Shown here: in pieces, positions 3,150 through 54,969 of the stretch | Position numbering within the stretch: position 1 is the stretch's first letter | How the letters are laid out: each line of letters opens with the position of its first letter | DNA from: Candidatus Levyibacteriota bacterium | GTDB lineage: Bacteria > Patescibacteriota > Microgenomatia > Levybacterales > UBA12049 | DNA: 64,000 nt | NCBI GenBank assembly: GCA_038254115.1 | Contig: JBBSGK010000003.1 | Coordinates: 9,624-73,623, forward strand | Reading direction: 5' to 3' | Position numbers and translations under genes: made by a program | The notes under the pieces: model-generated | Seen by the model: the letters and a program-made list of their open reading frames with translations, nothing else | The model's database searches: none | What the model was told of the DNA's origin: nothing

Positions 3150-3150
3150 A

Positions 3151-3240
3151 TTTTTATAGTTAAAATTTCAAAATTAAAAGTTAAAAGTCATAATGTAAGG
3201 TTAAAAAACTTTTCACTTTGCACTTTAGACTTTGAACTTA
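3151..3240. repeat. heptanucleotide tandem repeat arrays in inverted orientation (AAAAGTY units on the left, CTTTGMA x4 at 3207-3236 on the right) in the rplM-rpsI spacer; the right array overlaps the last codons of rplM
   Basis: 7-nt periodicity read directly from the sequence. Confidence 0.7.
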
Positions 3241-3653
3241 TCCTGATATTTATGTTCTTCTCCTGCAAAAACAAAAAGTCTCTTAAGCATCTTATCACGC
3301 AGCTTGTTTTGTGGAAGCATGCCTTTTACAGCGCGACTTACTATCTCCTCAGGTTTGCGTTCCCGTAACTCTTTAAGCGTTTCCTGCCTAAATCCTCCCG
3401 GATATCCTGAATGTCTGTAATAGTTTTTTTGTTCTTCTTTATTACCGGTTACTTTAATTTCCTTCGCATTAACGACCACCACATAATTTCCGCAGTCAAG
3501 ATTCCGGACAAAATAAGGCTCGCCTTTACCCATCAAAAGATGCGCTATCTCGGATGCGACTCGTCCCAATATCTTACCTTTCACATCAACAACGTGCCAG
3601 GACCGCTTGATGTCTGACGCTTTTGTTGCAACTGTAATACTTGCTTGATTCAT
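3225..3653 (-). CDS. rplM: 50S ribosomal protein L13
   Basis: SWHVVDVKGKILGRVAS...YYRHSGYPGG...MLPQNKL typical L13. Confidence 0.95.
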   Translation of the reverse strand: MNQASITVATKASDIKRSWHVVDVKGKILGRVASEIAHLLMGKGEPYFVRNLDCGNYVVVVNAKEIKVTGNKEEQKNYYRHSGYPGGFRQETLKELRERKPEEIVSRAVKGMLPQNKLRDKMLKRLFVFAGEEHKYQDKFKV

Positions 3654-3656
3654 AAT

Positions 3657-4199
3657 TTATTGCCCTTTTTTCTGTCGTGTAACTAATCTCTTGAAAATTC
3701 CCGGCTTTTGGACTTTTTCTTCCTTCTTACCGATAACCGGCTTAACTGCTTCAACCGTAGTGACTTTTACATTTTTTTTAGCTTTTACGGGTTTCTTTGT
3801 TTTTTTCTCGCTCTTTTCAGGCTTTGTGCTTATAACTTTTGTACTTTGTTCTGTCCACTCCAAATATACCATTTCCGCATTATCCGCAACACGCCTTTTG
3901 CCTATTTTTATAATTCGTGTGTATCCTCCGGCTCTTTTTGTAAAACGTGGCGCTATATCGTCAATTAATTTTACTACAGCTTCCTCATTTATGTCAGGGT
4001 GTAGACTTTTATATACATTGGCGCCTCCCTTTTTTGCTTTTGTTACCATTTTATCAGCAGCGCCCCGGATAGCCTTGGCTTTTGCCTCAGTTGTTTTTAT
4101 GCGCTCTTCCAAAACAAGAGACGTAAGCAAATTTTTAAATAATGCTTTACGCTCATTTGCATCTCTTTTAAATTTTCTTCCAAATACATTTTTTTTCAT
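3657..4199 (-). CDS. rplQ: 50S ribosomal protein L17 with C-terminal lysine-rich extension
   Basis: FGRKFKRDANERKALFKNLLTSLV...GGYTRIIKIG core L17; about 60 extra K/E/V-rich residues. Confidence 0.9.
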   Translation of the reverse strand: MKKNVFGRKFKRDANERKALFKNLLTSLVLEERIKTTEAKAKAIRGAADKMVTKAKKGGANVYKSLHPDINEEAVVKLIDDIAPRFTKRAGGYTRIIKIGKRRVADNAEMVYLEWTEQSTKVISTKPEKSEKKTKKPVKAKKNVKVTTVEAVKPVIGKKEEKVQKPGIFKRLVTRQKKGQ

Positions 4200-4200
4200 A

Positions 4201-4313
4201 AAAAAAAGTCAAAATACTAAAGGCAAAATTCAAAAATACAAGTAAAAATTCAAAACTTTATAGACTTTTTACTTTTGAATTGTGATTTTGACTTTTGAAT
4301 TCTAACTCTTAAC
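4201..4313. repeat. about 110-bp imperfect palindrome built from heptamer units (AAAAGTC/AAAATTC ... then their complements TTTGAAT/TTGACTT) in the rpoA-rplQ spacer
   Basis: left half is the reverse complement of the right half, centred near 4257. Confidence 0.7.
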
Positions 4314-5240
4314 TTAGGCAGACAATGTTACACCTTTTTCTTTAAGTTTTTCCTCAATAACAAAAATGGATTTGCCTCCCATGTTGCGCATACTTACCAA
4401 TTCTTTTCGCGGTACAGCCAAAAGCTGCTCAATTGTCTCGACGCCACCGTTTCTTAGGCTGTTGTAAATTCTTGTAGGAAGATCCAATTCATCAATTGTT
4501 GTTTTGAGGGTGCTTTGAGAAATTGTAGAGGCGGAAGGTAACCCTTCGGCAGCGACAGGCTGAGCCTTTGGTTCGTAAATCTGCGTGAAATGAGATGCCA
4601 AAATCTTTGAAGCTGTGTTCAGCGCATCTACAGGGCTTACTGATCCATTGGTCCAGATCTTAAGAATAAGCTTATCAAGATCAGTACGCCGCCCTACACG
4701 TGTTGCTGCAACTGTGTATGTGACCCGCCTGACCGGTGTGAATACCGCATCAACTGAAATATTACCAAGAGAGGCTGCTTTTCTGTCTTCTGAGAGTGAG
4801 TAGCCAAACCCTTTCTCAATAGTGAGTTCCATTTCCAATTTTGACTTATCTCCTGATAGAGAACCAATGTATTGGTCTTTGTTGACAACCTCAATTCCCT
4901 CTGTCAATTCCAAATCTTTTGCGGTTATTTTTTTGCTTCCTTTAACCGAAAGCTTGATTGTCTCGCTTGTTTTGCTTCCAACAATCCGGAAATTTAGCTC
5001 TTTAATATTAAGAAGAAGATCAATGATATTTTCTTTGAGGCCGGGGAGTGTTGAGAATTTGTGCTTTACATTACTGATCCTAACTGATGTAACAGCAGCT
5101 CCAGGAATGGTTGTGTAGAGAACACGGCGCAAGCTATTACCCATCGTGTGACCGTATCCCGGCTCCAATGGTTCAATAGAAAATTCTCCAAAATCGGCGG
5201 TTGAGCTTATTTCTTTTACTTTAAAAATGTATTCGTCCAT
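4314..5240 (-). CDS. rpoA: DNA-directed RNA polymerase alpha subunit
   Basis: GYGHTMGNSLRRVLYTTIPGAAVTSVRI N-terminal domain and C-terminal alpha-CTD (LDLPTRIYNSLRNGGVETIEQLL). Confidence 0.95.
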   Translation of the reverse strand: MDEYIFKVKEISSTADFGEFSIEPLEPGYGHTMGNSLRRVLYTTIPGAAVTSVRISNVKHKFSTLPGLKENIIDLLLNIKELNFRIVGSKTSETIKLSVKGSKKITAKDLELTEGIEVVNKDQYIGSLSGDKSKLEMELTIEKGFGYSLSEDRKAASLGNISVDAVFTPVRRVTYTVAATRVGRRTDLDKLILKIWTNGSVSPVDALNTASKILASHFTQIYEPKAQPVAAEGLPSASTISQSTLKTTIDELDLPTRIYNSLRNGGVETIEQLLAVPRKELVSMRNMGGKSIFVIEEKLKEKGVTLSA

Positions 5241-5261
5241 AGTAATCTACCTATTGTATCA

Positions 5262-5867
5262 TTATCTCGAGTAATATTCAATGATTTGTCTTGTACTAAA
5301 AGGCGGCATAATGTCATCTGGCGTAGGCATGCGCTTTAATTTGCCTACAGGTCCTTTTTTCTCAAGGAATGCAATTGGCTCAAGCTTTTCCTCCAACAAT
5401 TTTATAATATCAGGATTTTTTTGCATTGTGTCACTAATTGAAACAACATCCCCTTCTTTGACTGTATATGATGGAATCGTCATTCTCTTGTTGTTAACCA
5501 ACACATGTCCGTGTACTACGATTTGGCGGGCCATCATCCTGGACTTTGAAAGACCCAGTCTATAAACAATATTATCAAGCCGTCTCTCAAGAGTTGAAAG
5601 AAGCAGCTCTTCCGTATCACCAATTTGTGCTGTAACAGCTTGCACCAGCTGCTTAAACTGCTTTTCGAACAATCCGTACATTACTTTTGCTTTCTGTTTC
5701 TCGCGAAGCTGCATTCCATATTCAGATGGTCTACGTCTACCCTTTTTTCCGGCGTGCACACCTGGTGGTATATTAAGCCTTCGCATTAAAGACGCTGAAT
5801 TTTTGTCCAGAATATTTATTCCTTCGCGTCTTGCTAATTTATGTTTTGGTCCTGTATATCTAGCCAT
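5262..5867 (-). CDS. rpsD: 30S ribosomal protein S4
   Basis: MARYTGPKHKLARREGINI..., S4 RNA-binding domain (RLDNIVYRLGLSKSRMMARQIVVHGHVLVNNK). Confidence 0.95.
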   Translation of the reverse strand: MARYTGPKHKLARREGINILDKNSASLMRRLNIPPGVHAGKKGRRRPSEYGMQLREKQKAKVMYGLFEKQFKQLVQAVTAQIGDTEELLLSTLERRLDNIVYRLGLSKSRMMARQIVVHGHVLVNNKRMTIPSYTVKEGDVVSISDTMQKNPDIIKLLEEKLEPIAFLEKKGPVGKLKRMPTPDDIMPPFSTRQIIEYYSR

Positions 5868-5913
5868 AATATTATGTGATTTAAGATTTATGATTCAAGA
5901 TTAAAGAATTCTT

Positions 5914-5964
5914 ATTGCCGACAGGCAATTCTTAAATCTTACTTCTTAAATCATTAATCTTCTA
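5914..5964. repeat. hairpin ATTGCC-GACA-GGCAAT followed by five tandem TCTTAAA-type heptamers in the rpsK-rpsD spacer, running into the rpsK stop
   Basis: TCTTAAA TCTTACT TCTTAAA TCATTAA TCTTCTA at 5930-5964. Confidence 0.65.
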
Positions 5965-6399
5965 TACCCTTCTCTTCTTTTTAGCCCTTGGCCCATTGTG
6001 CGGCATAGGCGTTATATCTGATATTGAATTGATAAATACTCCTGAAGTTCGGATGCCACGGAGTGAGCTGTCGCGTCCGTTTCCAGGGCCCTTGATAAAT
6101 ATATCGACTGATTTTAAGCCTTTTTCAACAATCCGCTTCACAACCTCCTCAGCTGCAAGACTCGCAGCATATGGAGTAGACTTACGTGTACCTTTAAAAC
6201 CGCGAGCTCCTGCTGAGCTCCATCCGAGCGTGTCGCCTTTATCATTTGTAACTGTTACAAGAGTATTGTTAAATGTAGAAGTTACATAAACACGGCCGCG
6301 CTCTGTGATGTTGCTTATTTTTTTGCGTGCTGCACCTATCTTAACTTTGGTCTTTTTCTCTTTCTCTTTGACTATTTTTTTATCTGCTTTTTTTGCCAT
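5962..6399 (-). CDS. rpsK: 30S ribosomal protein S11
   Basis: TFNNTLVTVTNDKGDTLGWSSAGARGFKGTRKSTPYAA...KGPGNGRDSSLRGI. Confidence 0.95.
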   Translation of the reverse strand: MAKKADKKIVKEKEKKTKVKIGAARKKISNITERGRVYVTSTFNNTLVTVTNDKGDTLGWSSAGARGFKGTRKSTPYAASLAAEEVVKRIVEKGLKSVDIFIKGPGNGRDSSLRGIRTSGVFINSISDITPMPHNGPRAKKKRRV

Positions 6400-6411
6400 A
6401 TGTTCCTTTCA

Positions 6412-6510
6412 GTCAAGTTTAAAATTCAAAGTTTAAAATGCAAAGTTATTTATTAAAATTTTTTAACTTTCAACAGCAACTTTTAACTTTTCACTTTGAA
6501 CTTTTAACTT
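6412..6510. repeat. inverted heptamer arrays (CAAAGTT-type left, AACTTTT/CACTTTG-type right) in the rpsM-rpsK spacer
   Basis: CAAGTTT AAAATTC AAAGTTT AAAATGC AAAGTTA ... CAACTTT TAACTTT TCACTTT GAACTTT TAACTT. Confidence 0.7.
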
Positions 6511-7033: not shown

Positions 7034-7105
7034 ATTATTTAGCACTTAGCCTCTAGCGTTTAGGGTCTAGTACTTTCTAGACGCTAGCCGCTAAACCCTA
7101 GACGC
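7034..7105. repeat. CTAG-rich heptamer array (TAGCACT TAGCCTC TAGCGTT TAGGGTC TAGTACT ...) with internal dyad symmetry in the rpmJ-infA spacer; same family as 29075-29138
   Basis: shares CTAGCGTTTAG, GCTAGCCGCTA, CCCTAGAC with the second copy. Confidence 0.65.
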
Positions 7106-7324
7106 TTATCTATAGCGAAACATTATCCTGCCACGTGTTTGGTCATATGGCGTCATTTCAATTTTTACCCTGTCTCCCGGCAGAATTTTTATAAAATGCA
7201 TCCGCATTTTTCCTGATAAGTGACAAAGTACCAGAGATCCGTCTTCTAGCTTAACGCGAAACAATGTATTTGGCAGTGCTTCGACAACTTCCCCATCTGT
7301 TTCAAAAGACCCTTGATGAGCCAT
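7106..7324 (-). CDS. infA: translation initiation factor IF-1
   Basis: 72 aa, S1-like OB fold sequence [51 protein letters not shown]. Confidence 0.95.
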
Positions 7325-7396
7325 AATTCAATACAAGTCCTAGGTAAACCCTAAGGACCGTTCAGACATTATAGCAAAGCAGGCTCAAAAGCGCAA

Positions 7397-8161
7397 TCAA
7401 CTTGTTAATAAAAGCGGTCCGTTTTTTGTAATTGCAATTGAGCGCTCAAATAGACCTGCCATACTTCCATCTTTTGACCGAATTGTCCAGCCGTCATGAT
7501 CCAAAACCACATCTTTTAATCCCATATTGTAAATCACCTCCACCGCAATAGTCATACCTTCTTCCAGAAGCGGAGTTTTTTCTATTTTTCTATTTAAATA
7601 TCCTGGTACTTCCGGCTCTTCATGAAGCTCCCGTCCGACTCCGTGCCCGATCAAACTTCTTACGACTGAGTAGCCATTCTGTTTTTCGACAATGTCCTGA
7701 ATTGTTTTTGAAATATGCCCAACCCTGTTACCAATTACTGCCTGTTTTATTCCTTCCTCAAGCGCAAGTTTCCCAATCTCTAAAAACTTTTCTTCAGAGC
7801 TTTGAGCTTTGAGCTTTGAACTTTGAACTATTTTAGTTTCGGCCATATCGGTATGAAACCCTTTATAAAAAACGCCGCAGTCGACCCCTACAACATCTCC
7901 TTCTTTAAGTTTATAACTTCTCGGAATTCCGTGCACCACTGCATCGTTTGTGGACATGCAAATTGTGTGATGGTATCCTTTTACTCTTTTAAATCCTGAT
8001 TCCCCGCCTTTTTCTCTTATCAATTTCTCAGCCAAAATGTCTAGTTCTATTTCTGTAACGCCGGGCTTTATTGAGTCCATTACAGCAAATAAAACTTCAG
8101 ACAAAATATGTCCTCCGTGCTTCATTATTTCGATTTCCTGTTGCGACTTAATATCAATCAT
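7397..8161 (-). CDS. map: methionine aminopeptidase type I, carrying an in-frame heptamer-repeat insertion
   Basis: MetAP fold motifs (HGIP, GHGVG, metal ligands D/D/H/E/E); 4x TTTGARC tandem repeat at 7801-7828 encodes loop SSKLKAQSS. Confidence 0.9.
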   Translation of the reverse strand: MIDIKSQQEIEIMKHGGHILSEVLFAVMDSIKPGVTEIELDILAEKLIREKGGESGFKRVKGYHHTICMSTNDAVVHGIPRSYKLKEGDVVGVDCGVFYKGFHTDMAETKIVQSSKLKAQSSEEKFLEIGKLALEEGIKQAVIGNRVGHISKTIQDIVEKQNGYSVVRSLIGHGVGRELHEEPEVPGYLNRKIEKTPLLEEGMTIAVEVIYNMGLKDVVLDHDGWTIRSKDGSMAGLFERSIAITKNGPLLLTS

Positions 8162-8843: not shown

Positions 8844-9388
8844 TATTTTAATTTCCTTATTATCTCTTTGTTAATATTTTCTGGAGCCTGTTCACCGCTT
8901 ATCTCAATCAAAGCTCTTTTATTTTTGTAGTATTCAAGAAGCGGTTTTGTAAATTTATGAAAAATTCCGATTCTTCTTGTAATCGCCTCCGGGGTATCAT
9001 CCGGGCGGGTCTGTTCTTTATTATCATTTCTTCCTTCAATTCTTCGTCTTGCCTCCTCATCTGACACATTTATATACACGACCTTGTCAATACCTGTCGG
9101 GAATGATTCTGCTTGGGAAAGATTACGGGGATATCCGTCAAGAATAAACCCGTTCTGATATTCAGGGCGGCTTAAGTAATCCGTCACTATTTCAAGTGTT
9201 TTATCATCAGGGATAAGATATCCTTTGGTCATTAGCTTTTTTATTTCCTTTCCCAGTGGGGTATCTTCTTGTGCGAGCTGCCGGAAAATATGACCTGTTG
9301 AAAGATATGGAACTTTTAAGGATTCTGAGAGAAGATTTCCTTGAGTCGACTTACCTGATCCTTGTACTCCTAAGAGGATAATCTTCAT
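8843..9388 (-). CDS. adk: adenylate kinase (short form, no zinc LID)
   Basis: MKIILLGVQGSGKSTQ P-loop, YLSTGHIFR, short LID. Confidence 0.9.
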   Translation of the reverse strand: MKIILLGVQGSGKSTQGNLLSESLKVPYLSTGHIFRQLAQEDTPLGKEIKKLMTKGYLIPDDKTLEIVTDYLSRPEYQNGFILDGYPRNLSQAESFPTGIDKVVYINVSDEEARRRIEGRNDNKEQTRPDDTPEAITRRIGIFHKFTKPLLEYYKNKRALIEISGEQAPENINKEIIRKLK

Positions 9389-25980: not shown

Positions 25981-25985
25981 AATAA

Positions 25986-26100
25986 AAAAGTTAAAAGTGC
26001 AAAGTGAAAAGTCCAAAGTTACAATGAAAAATTAAAAAACTCAACTTCAAACCGTAACTTTTAACTTTTAATTTTGAACCTTTAACTACTGAGAGTATAA
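25986..26100. repeat. inverted heptamer arrays (AAAAGTT AAAAGTG CAAAGTG AAAAGTC CAAAGTT ... AACTTTT AACTTTT AATTTTG AACCTTT) in the fusA leader; shares the 19-mer AAAGTGCAAAGTGAAAAGT with the 3193-3211 spacer
   Basis: read directly from the sequence. Confidence 0.7.
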
Positions 26101-29069: not shown

Positions 29070-29074
29070 ACTGG

Positions 29075-29138
29075 CTTCTAGCGTTTAGCGCTTAGCGTTT
29101 AGTTTTCTAGCCGCTAGGCCCTATACCCTAGACCCTAA
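29075..29138. repeat. second copy of the CTAG-rich heptamer element (CTAGCGT TTAGCGC TTAGCGT TTAGTTT TCTAGCC GCTAGGC CCTATAC CCTAGAC CCTAAAA)
   Basis: between the surface-protein gene and the oxidoreductase gene. Confidence 0.65.
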
Positions 29139-29141
29139 AAT

Positions 29142-31304: not shown

Positions 31305-32951
31305 GTGTCTAGTTTGCTGAAAACTCATAAAGCTGCCTTTGGTGTCGCTTTTCTTATATTAATCGGCGCGTTTCTCCGTTGCTATAATTTAAATTGGGGG
31401 GCTCCATTTTATTTCCATCCGGATGAGCGCAATATCGCATCAAGCATTACTCAGCTTGTATTCCCGACTCAGATGAACCCTCATTTTTTTGCATACGGCT
31501 CTTTGCCAATCTACATCATTTATTTTAGCGGTATGGTTACGAATTTTTTTTCTTCGTGTCACTTATCAATTACAAATTGCAAATTGTATAATGTCGAATT
31601 TGGGCACGCAATAATTATCAGCCGTTTTTATTCTGCTTTATTCTCCACCTTACTTATTCCTTTTATTTTTCTACTTGGAAAAAAAATGCACGGTCCCAAA
31701 ACAGGCCTTACAGCAGCTTTCCTTGCAACCTTTAGCGCAGGATTTATTCAGTTTGCCCACTTCGGAACCTTTGAAATGTGGCTTACATTTTTCAGTGTTC
31801 TCCTTTTTTGGTTTTGCCTTGAAGAATTAAATAAAAAAAATATCCATCACCTTTTTATTCTGCCAGCTATTTTTGCAATACTTTTGGCAATCAAAGTATC
31901 GTCCATTGCGCTACTGCCTCTTCCGCTTCTTATGATACTAATAAAAAAGCAAAACTCCTCCAAAAAACTTAAAGAGATAATTTTATTTATTGTTACTTTA
32001 TCGATAGTTTACGCAGTGACCAATCCTTTCGTCTTTTTGACAACACAAGAATTTCTCTCAAGTATAAGATATGAAGGCGGCGTTGTATTGGGCACGCTGG
32101 ACGTTTTCTACACACAATCTTTTTATAACACTATGCCAATAGTTTTCCAATTTCTCAATATTTTCCCATTTCTATTAAATCCTCTTTTTACTATTATATT
32201 CATCCCTGCCTTTTTTTATCTAATCTATAAAGGGATTAAAACAAAAAACCTATTGTTTTTATTTCTTATTTCTTACTTCTTACTTCTTTTCCTCCCCCAA
32301 GCTTTTCTTTTTGCGAAATGGACACGATACATGGTGCCGACATTGCCATTTATCTACCTTATAGTTGCAATAGCATCTATTGATTTTCTCAATATGTTAT
32401 CTAAATCCAAACGAGTATTTAGTATAAAGTATTTCGTATTAAGTATTTTCATATTGTTCACTATTGCATTCGGGATTTCTTATTTCATAACCGCATTTGT
32501 AAAACCTGATACCCGAATCGAAGCAGGCAAATTTACTCAAGCCAAAATCCAGCAAACCAGAAGAGTTTTGACTGAGCCTTATGACTTAGGAATAATCCCT
32601 TTCAATTCCCATCTCCAATATATTAACTCATTCAATTTCTACAATTTGGATCCAGAAAATAATGCTTTAAATGAAGAACTAAAAACAAAAATTTTCCAAT
32701 CTGACTATATTATATTACCAAGCCAAAGGCTTTTAAAATCCCGTTTATTAAATCCAAATAAATTCCGAAAAGGTCATGGAATTTACTCTTTATTAACAAA
32801 AGAGGCGCTTGGCTACCAAAAAATTTATGAAACACCTTGTGATATTTTCTGCAAAATCACTTACCTAAATAGTCCGGTTTTTTCATTTGAGGAGACAGCA
32901 AGTGTATTTGAAAGACCCACTGTTTTTATATTTAAAAAAGTTGCCAAATGA
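31305..32951 (+). CDS. GT-C superfamily membrane glycosyltransferase (ArnT/PMT, GT39/GT83-like)
   Basis: multi-TM; N-terminal NWGAPFYFHPDERNIAS loop paralogous to the next gene; start set at in-frame GTG 31305 because ORF-track start 31104 would overlap the convergent gene. Confidence 0.55.
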   Translation: MSSLLKTHKAAFGVAFLILIGAFLRCYNLNWGAPFYFHPDERNIASSITQLVFPTQMNPHFFAYGSLPIYIIYFSGMVTNFFSSCHLSITNCKLYNVEFGHAIIISRFYSALFSTLLIPFIFLLGKKMHGPKTGLTAAFLATFSAGFIQFAHFGTFEMWLTFFSVLLFWFCLEELNKKNIHHLFILPAIFAILLAIKVSSIALLPLPLLMILIKKQNSSKKLKEIILFIVTLSIVYAVTNPFVFLTTQEFLSSIRYEGGVVLGTLDVFYTQSFYNTMPIVFQFLNIFPFLLNPLFTIIFIPAFFYLIYKGIKTKNLLFLFLISYFLLLFLPQAFLFAKWTRYMVPTLPFIYLIVAIASIDFLNMLSKSKRVFSIKYFVLSIFILFTIAFGISYFITAFVKPDTRIEAGKFTQAKIQQTRRVLTEPYDLGIIPFNSHLQYINSFNFYNLDPENNALNEELKTKIFQSDYIILPSQRLLKSRLLNPNKFRKGHGIYSLLTKEALGYQKIYETPCDIFCKITYLNSPVFSFEETASVFERPTVFIFKKVAK

Positions 32952-34684
32952 AACTTATATTTTCAAAAGAAAAATTGATTTTATTCTTAATCCTAATTCT
33001 TGCCGCTTTTTTCCGCTTCTATAACGTCAATTGGGATGGCGGACACCAACTGCATCCTGACGAGAGGGCTATTGTCATGACAGTTGATAAGCTTCAAATT
33101 CCAAAAAACTTTTCTGATTTTTTGAGACCGGAAAGCTCGTGGAATCCGAAATTTTTTGCTTATGGTAGTTTTCCGATGTATCTACTTTTTGCTACAGGAA
33201 ACATTGCCGGTATTTTCAATCCGCTGCTTGCGCACTACGGTTCAATTAACCTAATCGGGCGGATACTCTCAGCTTTTGCGGATATTGTTACGGTTTTTTT
33301 GATTTTCAAAATTTCACGCAAACTTTTTAATTCCTCAATTGGTTACCTAGCAGCATTTTTTTATACTGTAAGCGTTCTACCCATTCAGCTTTCGCATTTT
33401 TTTGCTGTCGATACCTTATTAACCTGCTTTATAACTGCAACTCTTTATTTGCTGATCTTGTTTTATGAAAAACCCACATCTTATAAATCTCTCCTAATTG
33501 GTCTTTTTTTCGGCCTTGCGCTTGCCACCAAAATTAGCGCGCTGGTTTTATTGGTTTCAATAGGTACTGCGCTTATTGCCGATTTTATTCTGATTTTTAT
33601 AAAAAATCCCCATAAGCCAACGCATTGGTTGCCGAATTTGCCTGCTTTTTTAAAACACCTACTGCAATACGCGTTTCTTATTTTCTCAACTACTTTTATT
33701 GCTTTTATTTTTTTTGAGCCTTATGCCGTAATTGATTTTAAAAATTTTTGGGTCCAAACGCTCCAGCAATCGGCATTGACCAAGGATCCTTTTTACTTTC
33801 CATACACCCTTCAATATGTCGGTAAAATCCCCTATGCCTATGAATTCAAAAATGTTTTTCTTTGGGGACTTGGGCCAGTATTGGGAATACTAACGTTACT
33901 GGGAATGTTTTATTTTATTTATCTAAATTTTAAAAAAGGCCGGAGCCCACAGTTTACAAAGGCATTAATTATCTTAATATTTGTGGTTTCTTATGTTGCT
34001 GTTGTTGGCCGCTTTGCCGTTGGATTTATGCGCTATATGTTACCCGTATATCCTTTTTTTGCCCTCTTTGCATCTTTGCCCTCCTACCACTTTTATCAAA
34101 TTCTAAATAACCGCATAAAAAATATTTACACGCTTTTGGTTATTAGTTATTTGTTATTCGTTATTGTTTTAATCTGGCCTCTTAGCTTTATGCATATATA
34201 TAGCAAAAATAATACCAGAGTTGATGCCACTCTCTGGATAAATCAATTCATTCCGAAAGGCAAAACTGTGGCAATTGAACATTGGGACGATGGATTACCT
34301 CTGACTGATCAATCAAACTATAACATCCTTACATTGACTCTGTATGACCCTGATACGCAGCAAAAGTGGGAAACGATCAATCAACAGCTTAGGCATTCTG
34401 ACTACATAATTATAGCCTCAAATAGACTCTATACTCCTCTTCTGAGATTAACAGATTGTCAAGCACTACCACCTGATAGATGCTATCCTAAAACTTCTGC
34501 TTATTATAAAGATCTATTTGCTGAAAAACTTGGATTTCAAAAAGTTGCTGAATTCACAAACTATCCAACTGTTCCTATGCTAAATCTTCCTATAGATGAT
34601 CAGGTTGCAGACGAATCTTTTACTGTCTACGATCATCCAAAAGTAATGATCTTTCAAAAAACTGCCTCTCGTAGTAGAATATAG
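32948..34684 (+). CDS. GT-C superfamily membrane glycosyltransferase, paralogue of the preceding gene
   Basis: 578 aa, >10 TM; YNVNWDGGHQLHPDERAIVM loop motif; 4-nt overlap with upstream gene. Confidence 0.55.
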   Translation: MKLIFSKEKLILFLILILAAFFRFYNVNWDGGHQLHPDERAIVMTVDKLQIPKNFSDFLRPESSWNPKFFAYGSFPMYLLFATGNIAGIFNPLLAHYGSINLIGRILSAFADIVTVFLIFKISRKLFNSSIGYLAAFFYTVSVLPIQLSHFFAVDTLLTCFITATLYLLILFYEKPTSYKSLLIGLFFGLALATKISALVLLVSIGTALIADFILIFIKNPHKPTHWLPNLPAFLKHLLQYAFLIFSTTFIAFIFFEPYAVIDFKNFWVQTLQQSALTKDPFYFPYTLQYVGKIPYAYEFKNVFLWGLGPVLGILTLLGMFYFIYLNFKKGRSPQFTKALIILIFVVSYVAVVGRFAVGFMRYMLPVYPFFALFASLPSYHFYQILNNRIKNIYTLLVISYLLFVIVLIWPLSFMHIYSKNNTRVDATLWINQFIPKGKTVAIEHWDDGLPLTDQSNYNILTLTLYDPDTQQKWETINQQLRHSDYIIIASNRLYTPLLRLTDCQALPPDRCYPKTSAYYKDLFAEKLGFQKVAEFTNYPTVPMLNLPIDDQVADESFTVYDHPKVMIFQKTASRSRI

Positions 34685-35736: not shown

Positions 35737-36312
35737 ATGAATATTGGTTTTGATTTAGATAAAATTTTTATTGATTATCCGCCTTTTGTGTCACCCCGTG
35801 TAATGGACAAACTTTATAAAAAGAAGGACAACGGCGTACTGCTTTATAGAATCCCGTCTTACCCTGAGCAGCTATTAAGACGCGCATCTCACATGCCATT
35901 TCTTAGGCCTGCAATTAAACAAAATTTGGAGTTTCTAAGAAGAATTTCTAAAAAAGATAATAAGCTCTATCTTATATCTAGCCGTTTTAAGTTCCTCGAG
36001 AAACGTACTGCCAAGCTCATAAAGCGGTACGAATTAGATCAAATATTTGATGAGATGTTTTTTAACTATGCCAACTTTCAGCCCCATATCTTCAAGCAGG
36101 AAATTATCAACAACTTGAATCTTGATATCTATGTGGATGATGACCTTTCTTTAATAAGGCACGCAGCAAAAACTAATGTTAAAACTAAATTCTTCTGGCT
36201 AAATACTTTCGGGGAAAAACATATTTTGCCCCAAAACATATTCGAAATCTCAACACTCGAAGAAATATTTAAATTACAAAATCAGAAATCCGAATATCGA
36301 AATCCGAAATAA
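35737..36312 (+). CDS. HAD-superfamily-like hydrolase (tentative)
   Basis: N-terminal GFDLDKIF resembles HAD motif I (DxD); YVDDD near C-terminus resembles motif IV; 3' end encoded by a CCGAAAT heptamer array. Confidence 0.35.
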   Translation: MNIGFDLDKIFIDYPPFVSPRVMDKLYKKKDNGVLLYRIPSYPEQLLRRASHMPFLRPAIKQNLEFLRRISKKDNKLYLISSRFKFLEKRTAKLIKRYELDQIFDEMFFNYANFQPHIFKQEIINNLNLDIYVDDDLSLIRHAAKTNVKTKFFWLNTFGEKHILPQNIFEISTLEEIFKLQNQKSEYRNPK

Positions 36313-36420
36313 TTTTCGTAATTACAATTTCATAACTGTTGAATGATTTGAGGATTTGAGATTGTTTCGAATTCCTGCCTGCCGGAAGGCAAGGTCGAGC
36401 TTTGTGCTTCGAATTTGAGT
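36283..36420. repeat. heptamer arrays (CAGAAAT CCGAATA TCGAAAT CCGAAAT; ATTTGAG units) plus a GC-rich bulged hairpin (36378-36394) in the HAD-like/DUF2298 spacer
   Basis: first array encodes the C-terminus of the HAD-like gene. Confidence 0.55.
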
Positions 36421-36427
36421 ATAACTT

Positions 36428-38669: not shown

Positions 38670-38996
38670 ATGTTTCAACCTTGGGGAAATTGTGTTCAAG
38701 ATGGAGTTGCAACGCTCCGGTGCCTTCCTGTCATTTTTCATAACGTAGTAAACGGTGCTTTAATATTTGTAGGAGTTGTTGCTCTATTTCTTATAATTTA
38801 TTCCGGTATCAGGCTGATCCTATCAGGCGGTGATCCCAAACAAGTCGAAGCAGCCCGGAAAATTATGAACTACGCAATACTGGGCGCCATACTTGTCCTA
38901 TCTTCTTTTGCAATTTTGTACTTTATCGCCTATGTTACCAACTCTAAAGACTGCATTAGCAATATTGAATCTATCAGCACGGGGGGATGCAAATAA
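38670..38996 (+). CDS. VirB2/TrbC-like T4SS pilin (tentative)
   Basis: 108 aa: leader, then two hydrophobic helices separated by a short polar loop (SGGDPKQVEAARK), the VirB2/TrbC architecture; located immediately upstream of VirB3/VirB4-like genes. Confidence 0.45.
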   Translation: MFQPWGNCVQDGVATLRCLPVIFHNVVNGALIFVGVVALFLIIYSGIRLILSGGDPKQVEAARKIMNYAILGAILVLSSFAILYFIAYVTNSKDCISNIESISTGGCK

Positions 38997-39100
38997 TTAT
39001 CCATAAGTTTTCACAAGCGAGCCTTACCATGTATTCCGTTTGACCTACTTTGTAGGAGTTGCATTGCTATTTTTCACGTTATACACTTTTTGTACTAGCA

Positions 39101-40387: not shown

Positions 40388-40390
40388 GCT

Positions 40391-43245: not shown

Positions 43246-43264
43246 ATTTTGTTACTATTAAAAT

Positions 43265-45088: not shown

Positions 45089-45129
45089 CAATTTGTGTTA
45101 ATCAAATATAGTGTATAAATAAATCATAT

Positions 45130-45699
45130 ATGAAAATCAAAAAAGAACATCTGATCTTGATTATATTCTCAGCAGTGATGCTTCTTATAGTTTTTGCTAT
45201 TGCGTACTTGGCATTGACAACTCCCACGAAACCGAATAATAAACCTATTGGTACTATTTCTCCTTCCCCTGTTTACACTGGCCACATTGCTATTTCTCCT
45301 ACTCCTGTAAATCCAGGAGTACCACCTGTCTCTTACAGTTCTGATGCAACTGATAGGCTAATAGAAAAAGTCCAAAACCATCCGCAGCTTTCGGATTCTG
45401 ATATTGCTGCAAAGCAAAAAATACTCTCTTTTTTGCCACAGGGCAAAACATCCGGATATGTATATCAGTCCTCAACTGTTCAAATTGAATACCTCAAATC
45501 CCCGGACGCTTTCCTGGCCGAAATCCTGACCATTGATATCGCGCAATCTAAAAAAGACGCAGTCAACTGGTTTAAGGTACAAGGAATGAGTCAAAAGGGT
45601 ATTTGCGACCTCCCTGTTTCTTTTTATCTCAATTCTAGAGTCGCAAATCAATTAAGAAATTTAAATATTAAATTTAGTCCGTTGGCTGAAGGGTGTTAA
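45130..45699 (+). CDS. secreted/membrane-anchored hypothetical protein
   Basis: 189 aa, N-terminal signal anchor, Pro-rich linker. Confidence 0.4.
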   Translation: MKIKKEHLILIIFSAVMLLIVFAIAYLALTTPTKPNNKPIGTISPSPVYTGHIAISPTPVNPGVPPVSYSSDATDRLIEKVQNHPQLSDSDIAAKQKILSFLPQGKTSGYVYQSSTVQIEYLKSPDAFLAEILTIDIAQSKKDAVNWFKVQGMSQKGICDLPVSFYLNSRVANQLRNLNIKFSPLAEGC

Positions 45700-53466: not shown

Positions 53467-54969
53467 ATGGAACATCTCCTTTTTTACCTTTTAATCCTCT
53501 TTTTACCGACACAACTGGGTCTTCATTTTTGGCCAAACTTTTCATCCGTCTTGGGAATACGGGTTGATTACCTCTCCCCCACTGTTTACGTTACTGATGT
53601 CCTAGTAGGTTTATTGATTATTAGTTGGGTATTTAGAAAGTTAAGTAGCAGATATTCAAGGAACTCAAAACTCAAAACTCCAAAGTCAAAATTACAATTC
53701 AAAATTCAAAATTATTGGCCGATTTTAATGTGGTTATTAGTTATCGGTTATTTGTTATTAGTTGTTCTTTTATCCCGCAGGATAGAAGGCGGGCTGTATA
53801 GTCTACTCAAATTCATAGAAATGTCCTTTGTAGCTTATTACACAGCCAAATTTATAGACTTCACGAAAGCATTCCAAAAAATAATTATTCTTTTGTCTTT
53901 TGGTGTAATCAGTGAATCAGCTATCGCTATTTTTCAATTTATTTTTCAGGGATCAATCGGCGGCCAACTTTATTATTTGGGAGAGCGGAGTTTTACTTCT
54001 TCAACCCCAGGAATCGCAAACGCCTCGCTAAATGGAGAGCTTGTTCTTCGTCCCTACGGCACATTCCCCCATCCAAATGTGCTTGCAGGCTATTTAGTGG
54101 TTACAATGATATTGATCTTGTTTTCACTGAGCTTTCGAAAAGCTAATAAAGAATTAAGAATTAAGAATAGAGAATTAAGGCTTATGAAAAGTATGTCTCC
54201 CGCCGTAATTCGTAATTCGTTATTCATAATTCAAGTAACTGCTCTTGTTCTTGGCACAATAGCGCTGTTTTTAACAATGAGCAGAGTGGCGACACTGATA
54301 TGGATATTAATTGCTACTTACTTCTTTTTTAAATTGTCATTCCGAGCACTTCGACTTCGCTCAGCATTAACTCCGCCGAGAAATCTCGTTAATTCTAAAC
54401 TTGTCAAAAATAGATCCCTCCATGCATTTCATTTAGTCGGGATGACAATAGTTTTATTATTGGCAATTTTTTTCTTTACCCCGCTTGGCTACAGGTTTAC
54501 AAATATTAGAAGCGGTGACGAAGCAATTGTTCAGAGACAAATGTTAATAGATAGCTCAATAAAAATGATAAAAACTAGTCCCCTACTTGGGGTAGGCTTA
54601 GGAAATTTTATTCCTACCCTTGCAAAAATTCAAAAACCACTATCTCTTGGATTATATCTTCAACCTGTACACAATATATTTTTACTTGTAGCAGCAGAGA
54701 CTGGATTAATAGGACTAGGATTTTTCACGTGGTTCTTGTGGAAGACGTATAAAAGAATTAAGAAGCATGCTTCGCTCCCGCTCAGCACAAGCGAATTAAG
54801 AATAAAGGAAAGTTTAGTATTAGGGCTAAGTACTATTCTAGTCCTTGGTCTATTTGATCACTACTGGCTTACTCTTCAGCAGGGACAACTTTTTATTGCC
54901 TTTATTATTGGTCTTTGCTGGACAAATTCCAAACAGAAAGCTTCCACCCCCGTGAGTAGAAAAATTTAG
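53467..54969 (+). CDS. O-antigen ligase-like (Wzy_C/WaaL family) polytopic membrane protein with heptamer-repeat-encoded basic loops
   Basis: about 12 TM; C-terminal Wzy_C-like block RSGDEAIVQRQMLIDSSIKMIKTSPLLGVGLGNF...QPVHNIFLLVAAETGLIGLGFF; start moved from ORF-track 53377 (repeat-encoded) to ATG 53467. Confidence 0.6.
   Translation: MEHLLFYLLILFLPTQLGLHFWPNFSSVLGIRVDYLSPTVYVTDVLVGLLIISWVFRKLSSRYSRNSKLKTPKSKLQFKIQNYWPILMWLLVIGYLLLVVLLSRRIEGGLYSLLKFIEMSFVAYYTAKFIDFTKAFQKIIILLSFGVISESAIAIFQFIFQGSIGGQLYYLGERSFTSSTPGIANASLNGELVLRPYGTFPHPNVLAGYLVVTMILILFSLSFRKANKELRIKNRELRLMKSMSPAVIRNSLFIIQVTALVLGTIALFLTMSRVATLIWILIATYFFFKLSFRALRLRSALTPPRNLVNSKLVKNRSLHAFHLVGMTIVLLLAIFFFTPLGYRFTNIRSGDEAIVQRQMLIDSSIKMIKTSPLLGVGLGNFIPTLAKIQKPLSLGLYLQPVHNIFLLVAAETGLIGLGFFTWFLWKTYKRIKKHASLPLSTSELRIKESLVLGLSTILVLGLFDHYWLTLQQGQLFIAFIIGLCWTNSKQKASTPVSRKI
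53662..53710 (+). repeat. in-frame coding heptamer array AACTCAA x2, AACTCCA, AAGTCAA, AATTACA, ATTCAAA x2 inside the O-antigen-ligase-like gene (encodes NSKLKTPKSKLQFKIQN loop)
   Basis: 7 consecutive heptamers. Confidence 0.7.
54149..54231 (+). repeat. two further in-frame heptamer arrays in the same gene: AAGAATT x4 (54149-54176) and CGTAATT CGTAATT CGTTATT CATAATT (54204-54231)
   Basis: encode KELRIKNRELRL and AVIRNSLFII. Confidence 0.7.

What the first reader, a model, noticed from the sequence alone, without database searches (positions are those of the whole stretch)
3151..6510. Genome-style family of heptanucleotide tandem repeats forming long AT-rich palindromes in every spacer of the ribosomal-protein operons
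The spacers rplM/rpsI, rpoA/rplQ, rpsK/rpsD, rpsM/rpsK and the fusA leader (25986-26100) are unusually long (75-115 bp).

They are built almost entirely from 7-nt units of the family (A/C)AAAGT(T/C/G) on one side and the complementary (A/G)ACTTT(T/G) on the other. Each spacer is therefore a pair of inverted heptamer arrays, i.e. a roughly 100-bp imperfect palindrome.

A 19-mer, AAAGTGCAAAGTGAAAAGT, is shared between the 3.2-kb spacer and the fusA leader. Several arrays run into the last codons or stop codon of the upstream gene (rplM, rpsK).

Such arrays resemble the cyanobacterial short tandemly repeated repetitive (STRR) heptamers, but are not an expected feature of Patescibacteria-like r-protein operons. 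They could be RNase III-type processing hairpins, attenuators or selfish micro-repeats.
Basis: seen in the sequence. Interest (0 to 1): 0.75.

Follow-up and report, generated by a model that had tools for sequence, protein, structure and literature searches.

The report
Seven-base-repeat hairpin elements between ribosomal genes
The long gaps between ribosomal-protein genes in this tiny-genome bacterium (Candidatus Levybacteria) are filled by fast-evolving hairpin-forming insertions built from 7-base tandem repeats, which are gained, lost and copied like small selfish DNA and resemble the heptamer repeats known from cyanobacteria.

Summary
In the 64-kb window only lag 7 gives strong tandem self-similarity: 14 arrays against 0.02 in local shuffles, and none at other lags. 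Most arrays come as inverted pairs that fold into 60-115 nt hairpins (z -2.7 to -5.8).

It is not "every spacer", and it is not one motif. Units differ by locus (AAAAGTN, GATTTAA, YTAGNNN).

The organism is a Levybacteria (Patescibacteria). About 130 related loci show the same period-7 arrays. More than 50 unit types occur.

Orthologous spacers are bimodal: 1-5 nt or 50-160 nt. Presence is patchy even between close relatives. The same element recurs at different loci. In-frame copies sit inside map and membrane-glycosyltransferase genes.

Best reading: STRR-like heptanucleotide repeats organised as REP/MITE-like palindromes. They probably arise by 7-nt slippage and by copy-paste, and are transcribed as intercistronic or leader hairpins.

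At map→infA, rpoA→rplQ and the fusA leader, a hairpin plus U-run abuts the start codon in most Levybacteria. That is probably an attenuator or stabiliser.

A sense-strand G·U excess and enrichment in ribosomal operons hint at RNA-level constraint. Why the period is 7 remains unexplained. Verdict: new variant of a known kind.

The parts
3150..3245 (-). Element A, rplM→rpsI junction. Inverted heptamer arrays 3158-3188 and 3208-3239 (AAAAGTN / NACTTTT). Its 5' end overlaps the last four codons and the stop codon of rplM (3225-3239).
   Evidence: TRF, lag-7 scan, exact 19-mer, alignment with B, D and F. The RNA fold is weak, z -0.6.
4200..4313 (-). Element B, rpoA→rplQ junction. Arms 4204-4251 and 4263-4310. 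In the transcript the hairpin starts 3 nt after the rpoA TAA and is followed by U8 directly before the rplQ AUG. No SD-like motif.
   Evidence: Inverted repeat I1. Fold -23.3 kcal/mol, z -2.7. The homologous element is present in L001. A long hairpin sits at this junction in 49 of 49 long spacers in Levybacteria.
5868..5961 (-). Element C, rpsK→rpsD junction. Arrays 5877-5907 (GATTTAA) and 5927-5958 (TTAAATC) around a GC-rich apex hairpin at 5915-5928 (TTGCC-GACA-GGCAA).
   Evidence: Fold -27.0 kcal/mol, z -5.8. The junction is empty (3 nt) in L051 and holds unrelated heptamer elements in L001, L002 and L003.
6400..6508 (-). Element D, rpsM→rpsK junction. Arms 6415-6460 and 6465-6510. The rpsM TAA is the first triplet of the element. 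An SD-like AAAGGA lies between the hairpin and the rpsK AUG.
   Evidence: Fold -26.6 kcal/mol, z -4.8. The junction is 1-4 nt in L051, L002, L003, L004 and L005, so this is a recent gain.
7034..7105 (-). Element E, infA→rpmJ junction. Inverted arrays of YTAGNNN units (about 7040-7106).
   Evidence: Fold -27.5 kcal/mol, z -2.9. The same unit type occurs at 29079-29137 and in L001, L002, L003, L009, L025 and L050 at other junctions.
25981..26092 (-). Element F, fusA leader in a divergent intergenic region. Arms 25986-26030 and 26055-26087. On the fusA strand, read by eye: an extended -10-like TGTTATACT, then the hairpin, then UUUUUUAUU, then AUG. Same family as A, B and D but in the opposite window orientation to A.
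   Evidence: Fold -32.1 kcal/mol, z -5.6.
29070..29141 (+). Element G, between a Big_13/fn3-domain protein gene and an amine-oxidase gene. Arrays 29079-29102 and 29114-29137 (YTAGNNN family).
   Evidence: Fold -27.0 kcal/mol, z -4.1.
36279..36365 (+). Arrays H (GAAATCC units, then GATTTGAG), followed by a small GC-rich hairpin. No significant long hairpin.
   Evidence: z 0.2. The adjacent stretch 36360-36425 has z -2.1.
53347..53440 (+). Arrays I, khpB→Wzy_C junction (TTTTCAA... / AAATTAA...). About 91% identical to part of the rplM→rpsI spacer element of L003 and to an element elsewhere in L051 (2121-2237), i.e. the same element at non-orthologous loci.
   Evidence: The RNA fold is weak, z -1.0.
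7797..7826 (-). In-ORF heptamer array (AAAGYTC x about 4.3) in map, encoding the loop VQSSKLKAQSSE.
   Evidence: The loop is short (VGKxx) in distant Patescibacteria and in some Levybacteria. In most Levybacteria it is an array of about four units whose unit differs by species.
53665..53763 (+). In-ORF arrays in the Wzy_C-family gene (53467-54969). 53665-53713 encodes the Lys-rich loop SKLKTPKSKLQFKIQNY. 53733-53763 (GTTATTA) encodes the following transmembrane segment.
   Evidence: The segment is absent from distant homologues. Orthologous arrays occur in L280 and L281.
54145..54232 (+). In-ORF inverted heptamer pair (GAATTAA... / CGTAATT...) in the Wzy_C-family gene, encoding about 30 residues (RKANKELRIKNRELRLMKSMSPAVIRNSLFII).
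   Evidence: Fold -20.5 kcal/mol, z -3.7. The segment is missing from about half of the aligned orthologues.
32259..34165 (+). In-ORF arrays in two PMT_2-family glycosyltransferase genes: 32259-32288 (TTACTTC), 32414-32448 (AGTATTT) and 34139-34165 (GTTATTA).
   Evidence: No complementary partner within 150 nt.

Best explanation
The spacers hold members of a clade-wide class of heptanucleotide tandem arrays, the same kind of thing as cyanobacterial STRR and bacterial heptamer simple-sequence repeats. In Levybacteria these are commonly arranged as two inverted arrays, so the DNA is a 60-115 bp imperfect palindrome.

SHOWN
- The period-7 arrays themselves.
- The inverted arrangement and the predicted hairpins.
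- Presence or absence at orthologous junctions.
- The same element at several loci.
- In-frame copies inside genes.
- A clade-wide distribution with unit turnover.

INFERRED
- Arrays are generated and kept uniform by slipped-strand events in 7-nt steps. Palindromy would be maintained by intrastrand templating.
- Whole elements are copied between gene junctions by an unidentified mechanism, much like REP/MITE-type selfish DNA.
- The elements lie between co-oriented cistrons separated by 1-5 nt in relatives, so they are transcribed with the operon. They fold into a long AU-rich hairpin that starts within about 4 nt of the upstream stop codon and ends about 8 nt before the next start codon.
- That compaction would explain why they are tolerated in tightly coupled operons.
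- Most copies (rpsM→rpsK, rpsK→rpsD, rplM→rpsI, infA→rpmJ) are recent, nearly neutral passengers.
- At rpoA→rplQ, at map→infA in relatives and in the fusA leader, a hairpin followed by a U-run abuts an SD-less start codon in most Levybacteria. There it most likely acts as a terminator-like attenuator or an RNA-end-protecting stem.

The cause of the strict 7-nt unit is unknown.
For: REALITY OF THE SIGNAL
- Period 7 is unique in the window.
- The same holds in relatives: in 79 genome loci nearly all arrays detected are at lag 7. In 80 metagenome loci there are 95 lag-7 arrays against 0-9 at other lags.
- Lag 7 is the best self-match lag in 95 of 135 long ribosomal-operon spacers.
- About 60 of 170 arrays have a complementary partner within 150 nt, against 9 in a reversed-sequence control.
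- Hairpins are significant for elements B to G.

ELEMENT-LIKE BEHAVIOUR
- Spacer lengths are bimodal. For rpsK→rpsD there are 33 spacers of 10 nt or less, none of 11-39 nt, and 20 of 40 nt or more.
- The same junction is empty or filled by unrelated units in close relatives. For rpsM→rpsK it is 109 nt here and 1-4 nt in L051, which has 93% identical RpoA, and in L002-L005.
- A, B, D and F align end to end at 70% column identity. A fifth copy lies just outside the window (L283 9905-10010).
- L046 8370-8443 is 94% identical to L046 9302-9375. L002 carries three copies of one element. Window 53391-53440 matches elements at other loci in L003 and L051.
- In-frame insertions are present in map and in the Wzy_C-family gene.

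SLIPPAGE AND HOMOGENISATION
- Units are near-identical within an array but differ between species at the same site.
- One 7-nt unit indel separates the homologous elements of L040 and L056.

RNA LEVEL
- The sense strand folds more stably than the antisense in 106 against 24 spacers.
- In sense-strand stems there are 50 G·U against 15 A·C single mismatches.
- The hairpin base lies a median 4 nt after the stop and 8 nt before the start at rpoA→rplQ.
- A T-run of at least 4 sits just before the ATG in 76-78% of map→infA and rpoA→rplQ long spacers, against 0-5% at infA→rpmJ and rpsK→rpsD.

PRECEDENT
- Heptanucleotide repeats are reported as over-represented in prokaryotes, with a polymerase-slippage proposal, as summarised in PMC4679880 and PMC4692102.
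- Several heptamer arrays occur in operon spacers of Nostoc (PMC2408588).
Against: - No transposase or RAYT gene is seen in the window or its extension. No target-site duplication could be defined. The copy mechanism is therefore unknown.
- Direct evidence for 7-nt slippage is a single indel. Most indels between homologous elements are not multiples of 7.
- Perfect arrays pile up at about 4 units: 16 have at least 4 units but only 1 has at least 5. Simple slippage does not predict this.
- Arrays are 15-27 times denser per non-ORF kb in ribosomal operons than in the flanking non-ribosomal genes of relatives. In the dnaA-wzy regions of three other genomes, 9 of 11 arrays sit in one gene. Such clustering suggests selection or targeting rather than neutral spread.
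- Synonymous sites inside the Wzy_C array are more conserved than in the rest of the gene: 0.82-0.93 against 0.45-0.52. The sample is small and there is a codon-bias caveat.
- The near-universal hairpin at rpoA→rplQ argues that at least some copies are functional rather than passengers.
- The consensus terminator scan did not call these stems.
Confidence: 0.55

Rival explanations
1. All of these hairpins are dedicated RNA regulatory or processing elements of the ribosomal operons. They would be RNase III sites, exonuclease barriers or attenuators, maintained by selection on structure. The 7-nt period would be only a by-product of how long AU-rich stems are lengthened.
For: - The sense strand is more stable than the antisense, and G·U mismatches exceed A·C on the sense strand.
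- Arrays are 15-27 times enriched in ribosomal operons.
- A long hairpin is present in every long rpoA→rplQ spacer despite complete sequence turnover.
- U-runs follow the hairpin at two junctions.
- The hairpin spans the distance from stop codon to start codon.
Against: - Four of the junctions are empty in most relatives, including a genome with 93% identical RpoA.
- Copies lie inside ORFs and upstream of unrelated genes.
- About 60% of arrays have no complementary partner.
- Elements A, H and I do not fold significantly.
- Alignable sets showed no both-sided compensatory change in one set and only 2 of 16 pairs in the other.
- The G·U bias could also come from transcription-linked C→T change on the non-template strand.
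Confidence: 0.2
2. The arrays are phased binding sites for a protein with a 7-nt or 7-bp footprint. One candidate class is a single-strand-binding OB-fold protein (cold-shock protein, IF1 or S1 type) that melts the hairpins. The other is a DNA-binding repressor that reads heptad repeats in direct and inverted orientation, like the omega repressor of inc18 plasmids.
For: - The period is strict, and perfect arrays plateau at about 4 units.
- A-rich and U-rich units of the type AAAANTC / GANTTTT are preferred.
- Arrays associate with translation-factor and ribosomal operons, including the infA leader in relatives.
- PMC4679880 discusses CspB binding one protein per heptamer as an explanation for TAACTGA repeats.
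- The omega-repressor heptad precedent is from my own knowledge, not from a tool result.
Against: - More than 50 different units occur, including GC-rich YTAGNNN and GGGTNCA, often several in one genome. No single sequence-specific protein fits.
- Arrays inside ORFs and transmembrane-segment codons are hard to reconcile with operator function.
- No candidate protein was identified.
Confidence: 0.1
3. They are classical non-autonomous transposable elements (MITE or REPIN type). A dedicated transposase encoded elsewhere in the genome, for example an IS200/IS605-type or RAYT HUH enzyme that recognises hairpins, would move them.
For: - The same element recurs within one genome and at non-orthologous loci in different genomes.
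- Junctions are either filled or empty.
- The termini TAAGTT...AACTTA are inverted.
Against: - No transposase was found in about 68 kb of this genome.
- No target-site duplication could be resolved.
- Elements at one junction differ completely between close relatives, and unit types are very numerous. That is unlike a family with conserved transposase-recognition ends.
- Solitary direct arrays are common.
Confidence: 0.1
4. The pattern is chance low-complexity AT-richness or an assembly artefact.
For: The spacers are AT-rich, and the sequences come from metagenome-assembled genomes.
Against: - Local shuffles give 0.02 arrays against 14 observed, and other lags give none.
- GC-rich units also occur.
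- The same trait appears in well over 100 independently assembled loci, including a closed chromosome.
- A separately assembled contig is 100% identical to the window over 7,235 nt.
Confidence: 0.01

Closest known systems
Cyanobacterial STRR (short tandemly repeated repetitive heptamers) and related heptamer arrays in Nostoc/Anabaena operon spacers
   Same: - Tandem 7-nt units, a few copies per array, dispersed at many mostly intergenic sites, several unit types per genome.
- Arrays lie inside operons between cistrons (PMC2408588).
- Some occur as inverted pairs (PMC4692102).
- In relatives, small GC-rich palindromes are found nested inside heptamer arrays. From memory this resembles the small dispersed repeats of Nostoc described by Elhai et al. 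2008, a paper not held in the library.
   Different: - A different phylum, with a genome of about 1 Mb.
- Many more unit types, mostly AT-rich.
- Arrays are short (about 4 units), whereas a 26-unit array is reported in Anabaena.
- About a third or more are paired into hairpins that span stop-to-start junctions of ribosomal operons.
- In-frame copies occur in essential genes.
Over-represented heptanucleotide simple-sequence repeats of prokaryotes (Mrázek et al. 2007, as summarised in PMC4679880 and PMC4692102; also TAACTGA repeats of Beggiatoaceae and GGGAATC repeats of Xanthomonas)
   Same: - Excess specifically of 7-nt units and an intergenic bias.
- Arrays lie directly upstream of start codons.
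- Length and sequence vary between close relatives while the position is kept.
   Different: Those systems are dominated by one unit per genome and by direct repeats. Here the unit is locus-specific and inverted pairing is common.
REP/REPIN, ERIC, Correia and other small palindromic dispersed repeats (MITE-like)
   Same: - An imperfect palindrome of 60-115 bp in many copies.
- Located between co-transcribed genes just after stop codons, transcribed as a hairpin.
- Patchy presence among relatives.
   Different: - No conserved sequence family or head motif.
- Arms are internally 7-nt periodic.
- No associated RAYT or IS was found, and no target-site duplication was resolved.
Rickettsia palindromic elements (RPE)
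   Same: Palindromic repeats that also insert in frame into protein-coding genes, adding a tolerated peptide segment. Here this is seen in the map loop and in the Wzy_C 30-residue segment.
   Different: No sequence relationship, shorter, heptamer-periodic, and many in-ORF copies are single arrays rather than palindromes. The RPE comparison rests on my own knowledge.
Intrinsic terminators/attenuators and phage T7-type intercistronic RNase III hairpins
   Same: A stem-loop between cistrons or in a leader. At rpoA→rplQ and in the fusA leader it is followed by a U-run.
   Different: Stems are 30-50 bp, AU-rich and interrupted. The U-run abuts the start codon. The consensus scan did not call them. 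No cleavage or termination data exist.

Membership tests
Heptanucleotide SSR / STRR-type tandem repeats | Head-to-tail copies of a 7-nt unit, significantly more frequent than chance and than other unit lengths | tested here: met
   - 14 arrays in the window against 0.02 in shuffles, and none at lags 3-6 or 8-15.
- 25 perfect arrays of at least 3 units at period 7, against 3 or fewer for periods 5, 6, 8 and 9.
Heptanucleotide SSR / STRR-type tandem repeats | Dispersed at many loci, mainly intergenic | tested here: met
   19 arrays lie across the 64-kb window. Of 170 arrays, 93 are non-ORF, 51 are in ORFs and 26 straddle ORF boundaries.
Heptanucleotide SSR / STRR-type tandem repeats | A small set of characteristic unit sequences per genome (STRR1-3 in Calothrix; recalled from my own knowledge) | tested here: not met
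   There are 54 canonical units in the first set of loci and at least 8 in this window alone.
Heptanucleotide SSR / STRR-type tandem repeats | Copy-number change by whole units between strains (slippage) | tested here: inconclusive
   One 7-nt indel separates L040 and L056. Other indels are not multiples of 7. No strain-level relatives were found: the best map identity is 80%, and L283 is identical to the window.
REP/REPIN | Short palindromic unit with a conserved head (GTAG/CGTC type) in hundreds of near-identical copies | tested here: not met
   No conserved head was seen. The families are small and divergent.
REP/REPIN | A cognate RAYT (Y1 HUH transposase) gene in the genome | not tested
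   None appeared among the ORFs scanned in the window or in the Pfam families on record for the L283 extension. The rest of the genome could not be examined.
MITE (Correia/ERIC-like) | Terminal inverted repeats plus a target-site duplication, with filled and empty sites | tested here: inconclusive
   Filled and empty sites are clear. The termini TAAGTT/AACTTA are inverted. No target-site duplication could be defined.
Rickettsia palindromic elements | In-frame insertion of a palindromic repeat into ORFs | tested here: met
   The pair at 54145-54232 encodes a 30-residue segment that is absent from about half of the orthologues.
Rickettsia palindromic elements | Sequence homology to RPE families and occurrence in Rickettsiales | not tested
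   No comparison with RPE sequences was run. The taxon is different (Levybacteria), and Rfam gave no match to any family in the window.
Intrinsic terminator | Stable stem-loop immediately followed by a U-tract | tested here: inconclusive
   - Elements B and F have U8 and U6 tails.
- 76-78% of map→infA and rpoA→rplQ long spacers have a T-run of at least 4.
- The stems are atypical, the consensus scan did not call them, and C, D and E lack U-runs.
RNase III processing hairpin | Demonstrated double-strand cleavage in a stem of about 20 bp or more | not testable with these tools
   Stems of 30-50 pairs with internal loops are predicted. No RNA data are available.
Phase-variation contingency locus | An SSR whose unit gain or loss switches a gene on or off, seen as frame-shifted alleles | tested here: inconclusive
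   In-ORF arrays lie in surface-glycan genes (Wzy_C, PMT_2) but also in essential map. All copies examined are in frame. No population data are available.
Known structured RNA families (Rfam) | A match to a curated covariance model | tested here: not met
   No match at gathering threshold anywhere in the window.

The most novel reading that the evidence does not exclude
The heptamer arrays are phased landing sites for an abundant single-strand RNA-binding OB-fold protein with a footprint of about 7 nt (IF1, cold-shock protein or S1 type). Cooperative binding to one arm would melt the terminator-like hairpins in front of infA, rplQ and fusA and at the intercistronic junctions. Expression of the translation apparatus would then be tied to the free pool of that protein. 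This would be a clade-wide, sequence-independent and period-dependent regulon, and would also explain the strict 7-nt unit and the plateau at about 4 units.
Probability: 0.08. Interest if true: 0.8.

Novelty: new variant of a known kind. Interest (0 to 1): 0.55.

Why it matters
- Patescibacteria genomes are about 1 Mb and tightly packed, with 1-5 nt between ribosomal cistrons. Finding that one clade repeatedly inserts 60-115 nt heptamer-periodic palindromes into those junctions, and in frame into an essential gene (map) and surface-glycan enzyme genes, shows that streamlined genomes can still host a proliferating repeat class.
- The material is a large comparative series of more than 130 loci with filled and empty sites. 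It could be used to attack an old unexplained fact: heptanucleotide repeats are the favoured long-unit repeat of prokaryotes.
- Gene callers will mis-set starts in such regions. Here a 530-aa ORF call runs through the arrays upstream of the Wzy_C-family gene, whose likely start is 30 codons downstream.
- Spacer length should not be read as evidence of regulation.
- If the conserved hairpin-plus-U-run elements prove regulatory, they would be a first handle on operon control in an uncultivated phylum.

Tried and rejected
- Rfam and tRNA scans of the window: nothing.
- Idea that stems have a regular '6 pairs + 1 mismatch' architecture: helix spacings show no dominant 7. Dropped.
- Idea of a conserved mRNA hairpin just upstream of the map array, with synonymous-site covariation: it looked striking in about 8 species. 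In 102 sequences the shuffle tests give only p = 0.03, 0.13 and 0.03, and the effect is confounded by GC content and phylogeny. Dropped.
- RNAalifold on alignable element sets: no both-sided compensatory change in one set, and only 2 of 16 pairs in the other. The sequences are either too similar or not alignable.
- Order of A-rich and T-rich arms: no consistent asymmetry.
- Target-site duplication at filled against empty junctions: not resolvable.
- Consensus promoter/terminator scan: counts close to shuffles, and none of the heptamer stems called as terminators.
- Metagenome scan for strain-level variants: the nearest has only 80% identical MetAP. An independent contig of the same organism is identical. 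Copy-number polymorphism therefore could not be tested.
Uninformative.
- Elhai et al. 2008 could not be read.
- Synonymous-site conservation inside the Wzy_C array is suggestive, but the sample is small and confounded by A-ending codon bias. It is not used as a main argument.

Full report
WHAT IS THERE

Pfam confirms the gene order on the minus strand: rpsI, rplM, rplQ, rpoA, rpsD, rpsK, rpsM, (rpmJ), infA, map, and further along fusA.

Tandem Repeats Finder reports period-7 arrays in each of them and in the fusA leader. A sliding lag-k self-match scan shows that the signal is specific. Windows with at least 22 of 28 matches number 48 at lag 7 and zero at every other lag from 3 to 15. The 14 arrays found at a 21/28 threshold compare with a mean of 0.02 in 300 local shuffles.

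The arrays come as inverted pairs. As sense-strand RNA they fold into long hairpins, with these z-scores against dinucleotide shuffles:
- rpoA→rplQ: -2.7
- rpsK→rpsD: -5.8
- rpsM→rpsK: -4.8
- infA→rpmJ: -2.9
- fusA leader: -5.6
- element at 29.1 kb: -4.1
- rplM→rpsI: only -0.6

The 19-mer is exact at 3208-3226(-) and 25994-26012(+).

CORRECTIONS TO THE OBSERVATION

It is not every spacer. rplQ/rplM and rpmJ/rpsM are 3 nt, rpsD/rpoA is a 21-nt promoter-like spacer, and no array was detected between 7837 and 25983.

It is also not one motif.
- Elements A, B, D and F are one family of AAAAGTN/NACTTTT arms. They align end to end at 70% column identity.
- rpsK→rpsD uses GATTTAA/TTAAATC around a GC-rich apex hairpin.
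- infA→rpmJ and the 29.1-kb element use YTAGNNN.
- Other arrays lie at 36.3 kb and 53.3 kb.
- Several lie inside ORFs: map, two PMT_2 glycosyltransferase genes and a Wzy_C-family gene.

What the loci share is the 7-nt period.

WHOSE GENOME, AND HOW GENERAL

RpoA-based retrieval places the window in Candidatus Levybacteria (Microgenomates, Patescibacteria). The best match is a closed 1.14-Mb chromosome at 93% RpoA identity.
- Most of the loci from this clade carry lag-7 arrays, while other lags give almost none. More distant Patescibacteria mostly lack them.
- A second, independent set of 80 metagenome loci gives 95 lag-7 arrays against 0-9 for other lags.
- Units are very diverse: 54 canonical units in the first set. 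There is a preference for A3-4NTC-type units such as AAAAGTC, AAAAATC and AAATCTC.
- Lag 7 is the best self-match lag in 95 of 135 long ribosomal-operon spacers.
- Among perfect arrays, 25 have at least 3 units and 16 have at least 4, but only one has at least 5.
- Roughly a third or more of arrays have a complementary partner within 150 nt: about 60 of 170, against 9 in a reversed control. The rest are solitary direct arrays.

THEY BEHAVE LIKE INSERTIONS

Orthologous junction lengths are bimodal. rpsK→rpsD has 33 spacers of 10 nt or less, none of 11-39 nt and 20 of 40 nt or more. rplM→rpsI has 30, 4 and 13.

The window's 109-nt rpsM→rpsK element is absent from L051, L002, L003, L004 and L005, where the junction reads TAA-N1-4-ATG. 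At rpsK→rpsD the window, L001/L003 and L002 carry three unrelated heptamer elements, and L051 carries none.

The same element occurs at different places.
- Four copies lie in the window. A fifth lies 3 kb beyond its left end, upstream of a response-regulator-like gene (L283).
- Two 94%-identical copies occur in L046, and three copies in L002.
- The window's 53.3-kb element matches the rplM→rpsI spacer element of L003 and an element at another locus in L051.

Elements begin at, or supply, the upstream stop codon. In rplM the element replaces the last four codons.

COPIES INSIDE GENES

In MetAP the loop after GFHTDM-ET..V is short (VGKxx) in distant Patescibacteria and in some Levybacteria. In most Levybacteria it is about 10 residues longer and is encoded by about four heptamer units. 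The unit differs between species: AAGTCAA, AAATCTC, AAAAGCA, AGAGCAA, GTTCAGA, GGGTNCA and others. Within an array the units are near-identical. That is the signature of array homogenisation rather than independent point mutation.

In the Wzy_C-family protein the array-encoded Lys-rich loop is missing from distant homologues. The 30-residue segment encoded by the inverted pair 54145-54232 (fold z -3.7) is missing from about half of the orthologues.

In the dnaA-wzy regions of three other Levybacteria, 9 of 11 arrays sit inside that one gene.

HINTS OF RNA-LEVEL CONSTRAINT AND OF FUNCTION AT SOME SITES

- In 136 long spacers the sense strand folds more stably than the antisense in 106 cases against 24 (Wilcoxon 8e-14).
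- In Watson-Crick-only stems, single mismatches are G·U 50 times and A·C 15 times. Composition alone predicts about 59%.
- Arrays are 2.7-4.7 per kb of non-ORF sequence in the ribosomal operons of relatives, against 0.17 in the downstream non-ribosomal genes. In this window, however, the two halves are similar.
- The rpoA→rplQ junction holds a long hairpin (30-50 pairs, mean z -4.8) in all 49 long spacers examined. Its base lies a median 4 nt after the stop and 8 nt before the start, yet the sequences are not alignable between species.
- At rpoA→rplQ and at map→infA, 76-78% of long spacers end in a T-run of at least 4 directly before an SD-less ATG. The figure is 0-5% at infA→rpmJ and rpsK→rpsD.
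- Read by eye from the sequences, the window's fusA leader has the same layout: an extended -10-like TGTTATACT, then the hairpin, then UUUUUUAUU, then AUG.
- In relatives with an empty map→infA site, the -10 box is followed almost at once by the ATG. The insertion therefore converts a leaderless-type start into a hairpin leader.

INTERPRETATION

The weight of evidence favours a repeat class, not a conserved regulator. These are STRR-like heptanucleotide arrays that in this clade are commonly organised as palindromes. They are generated and homogenised in 7-nt steps, copied between junctions by an unknown route, and transcribed as part of the operon. The steps of slippage, templated palindrome maintenance and tolerance through compaction are inferred.

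Direct support for slippage is thin: one 7-nt indel between homologous elements. No transposase or target duplication was found.

A subset with U-runs at conserved junctions is probably functional, as a terminator-like attenuator or an end-protecting stem. This too is inferred from anatomy.

The strict unit length, the plateau at about 4 units and the strong clustering in particular operons and genes are not explained. They keep protein-binding models alive.

COMPARISON WITH WHAT IS KNOWN

- Over-representation of heptanucleotide repeats in prokaryotes, with a proposed polymerase-slippage cause, is described in papers I could read (PMC4679880, PMC4692102).
- Several heptamer arrays lie in Nostoc operon spacers (PMC2408588).
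- Inverted pairs occur in Xanthomonas and Anabaena.
- A cold-shock-protein idea has been put forward for TAACTGA repeats.
- No paper in the searchable library links such repeats to Patescibacteria.

The Levybacteria case differs in five ways: the locus-specific units, the frequent pairing into stop-to-start hairpins, the concentration in ribosomal operons, the in-frame copies in essential genes (reminiscent of Rickettsia palindromic elements, from my own knowledge), and the host with a minimal genome. I therefore file it as a new variant of a known kind.

ARTEFACT CHECK

The trait is seen in well over 100 independently assembled loci, including a closed chromosome. A separately assembled contig of the same organism is 100% identical to the window over 7,235 nt, including elements A to D.

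Noticed in passing
window 54335-54447 (+), inside the Wzy_C-family ORF; also L112, L125 and L157/L158 (map loop), and spacers of L003, L008, L018, L038 and L044: A second class of small GC-rich palindromic insertions. In the window, an 11-nt terminal inverted repeat (TGTCATTCCGA ... TCGGGATGACA) brackets about 90 nt that encode an extra protein segment present in only a few orthologues. In relatives, similar GC-rich hairpins interrupt the heptamer array inside map (e.g. L125 CCGCCTGCCAAAGCCTGGCACCGGCGGGCAGG) and sit in ribosomal spacers. From memory this resembles small mobile hairpins nested in heptamer repeats in Nostoc.
   Followed up: partly
window 5241-5261 (rpsD→rpoA) and 7325-7396 (map→infA), minus strand; L003-L005 map→infA: Promoter-like boxes sit directly against start codons. 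TGATACAAT lies about 11 nt before the rpoA ATG and is conserved in relatives. TTGCGC-N17-TGCTATAAT lies before infA. In L003-L005 the infA ATG follows the -10 box by 5-6 nt, suggesting leaderless mRNAs.
   Followed up: no
L013 9340-9385, L017 9340-9385, L018 about 9335-9380, L006 about 9345-9377 (rpsK→rpsD spacers): A conserved hairpin CCATAGATTGGAGGYYAATCTATGG puts the SD (GGAGG) in the loop and the rpsD start codon in the stem, just downstream of a (GGAAATT)4 array. It is a candidate translational operator for S4.
   Followed up: no
window 48639-53343: dnaN and dnaA on the minus strand diverge from yidC and a KhpB/Jag-like gene on the plus strand. The replication origin is probably near 51.3-52.0 kb. 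The gene-strand switch at about 26.1 kb (fusA against a PilN-like gene) is therefore not the origin.
   Followed up: no
window 38670-47591: A type-IV-secretion-like cluster: a T4SS pilin, a PrgI-family protein, a TraG/VirB4-like ATPase, a DUF11 protein and an M23 peptidase. It is syntenic in three other Levybacteria.
   Followed up: no
window 43593-43640 (+): A tandem repeat with an 11-12 nt unit (GCGGGAAAAAA, about 4 copies) lies inside the DUF11-domain ORF. It is the only notable non-heptamer tandem array in the window.
   Followed up: no
window 53377-53466: The mechanical ORF for the Wzy_C-family gene starts at a GTG inside the upstream heptamer arrays. The likely true start is the ATG at 53467 (MEHLLFYLL...), which matches the homologues. 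Such arrays can mislead start-codon calling.
   Followed up: yes
L280 11231-11279, L282 11245-11288, L281 11152-11195: Near the C-terminus of the Wzy_C orthologues, another in-ORF array (GGCAAAT x4, peptide ANGKWQMANG; or AGTCAGA x4) is present in some genomes and absent from the window's gene. This gene is a recurrent hot spot for heptamer arrays.
   Followed up: partly
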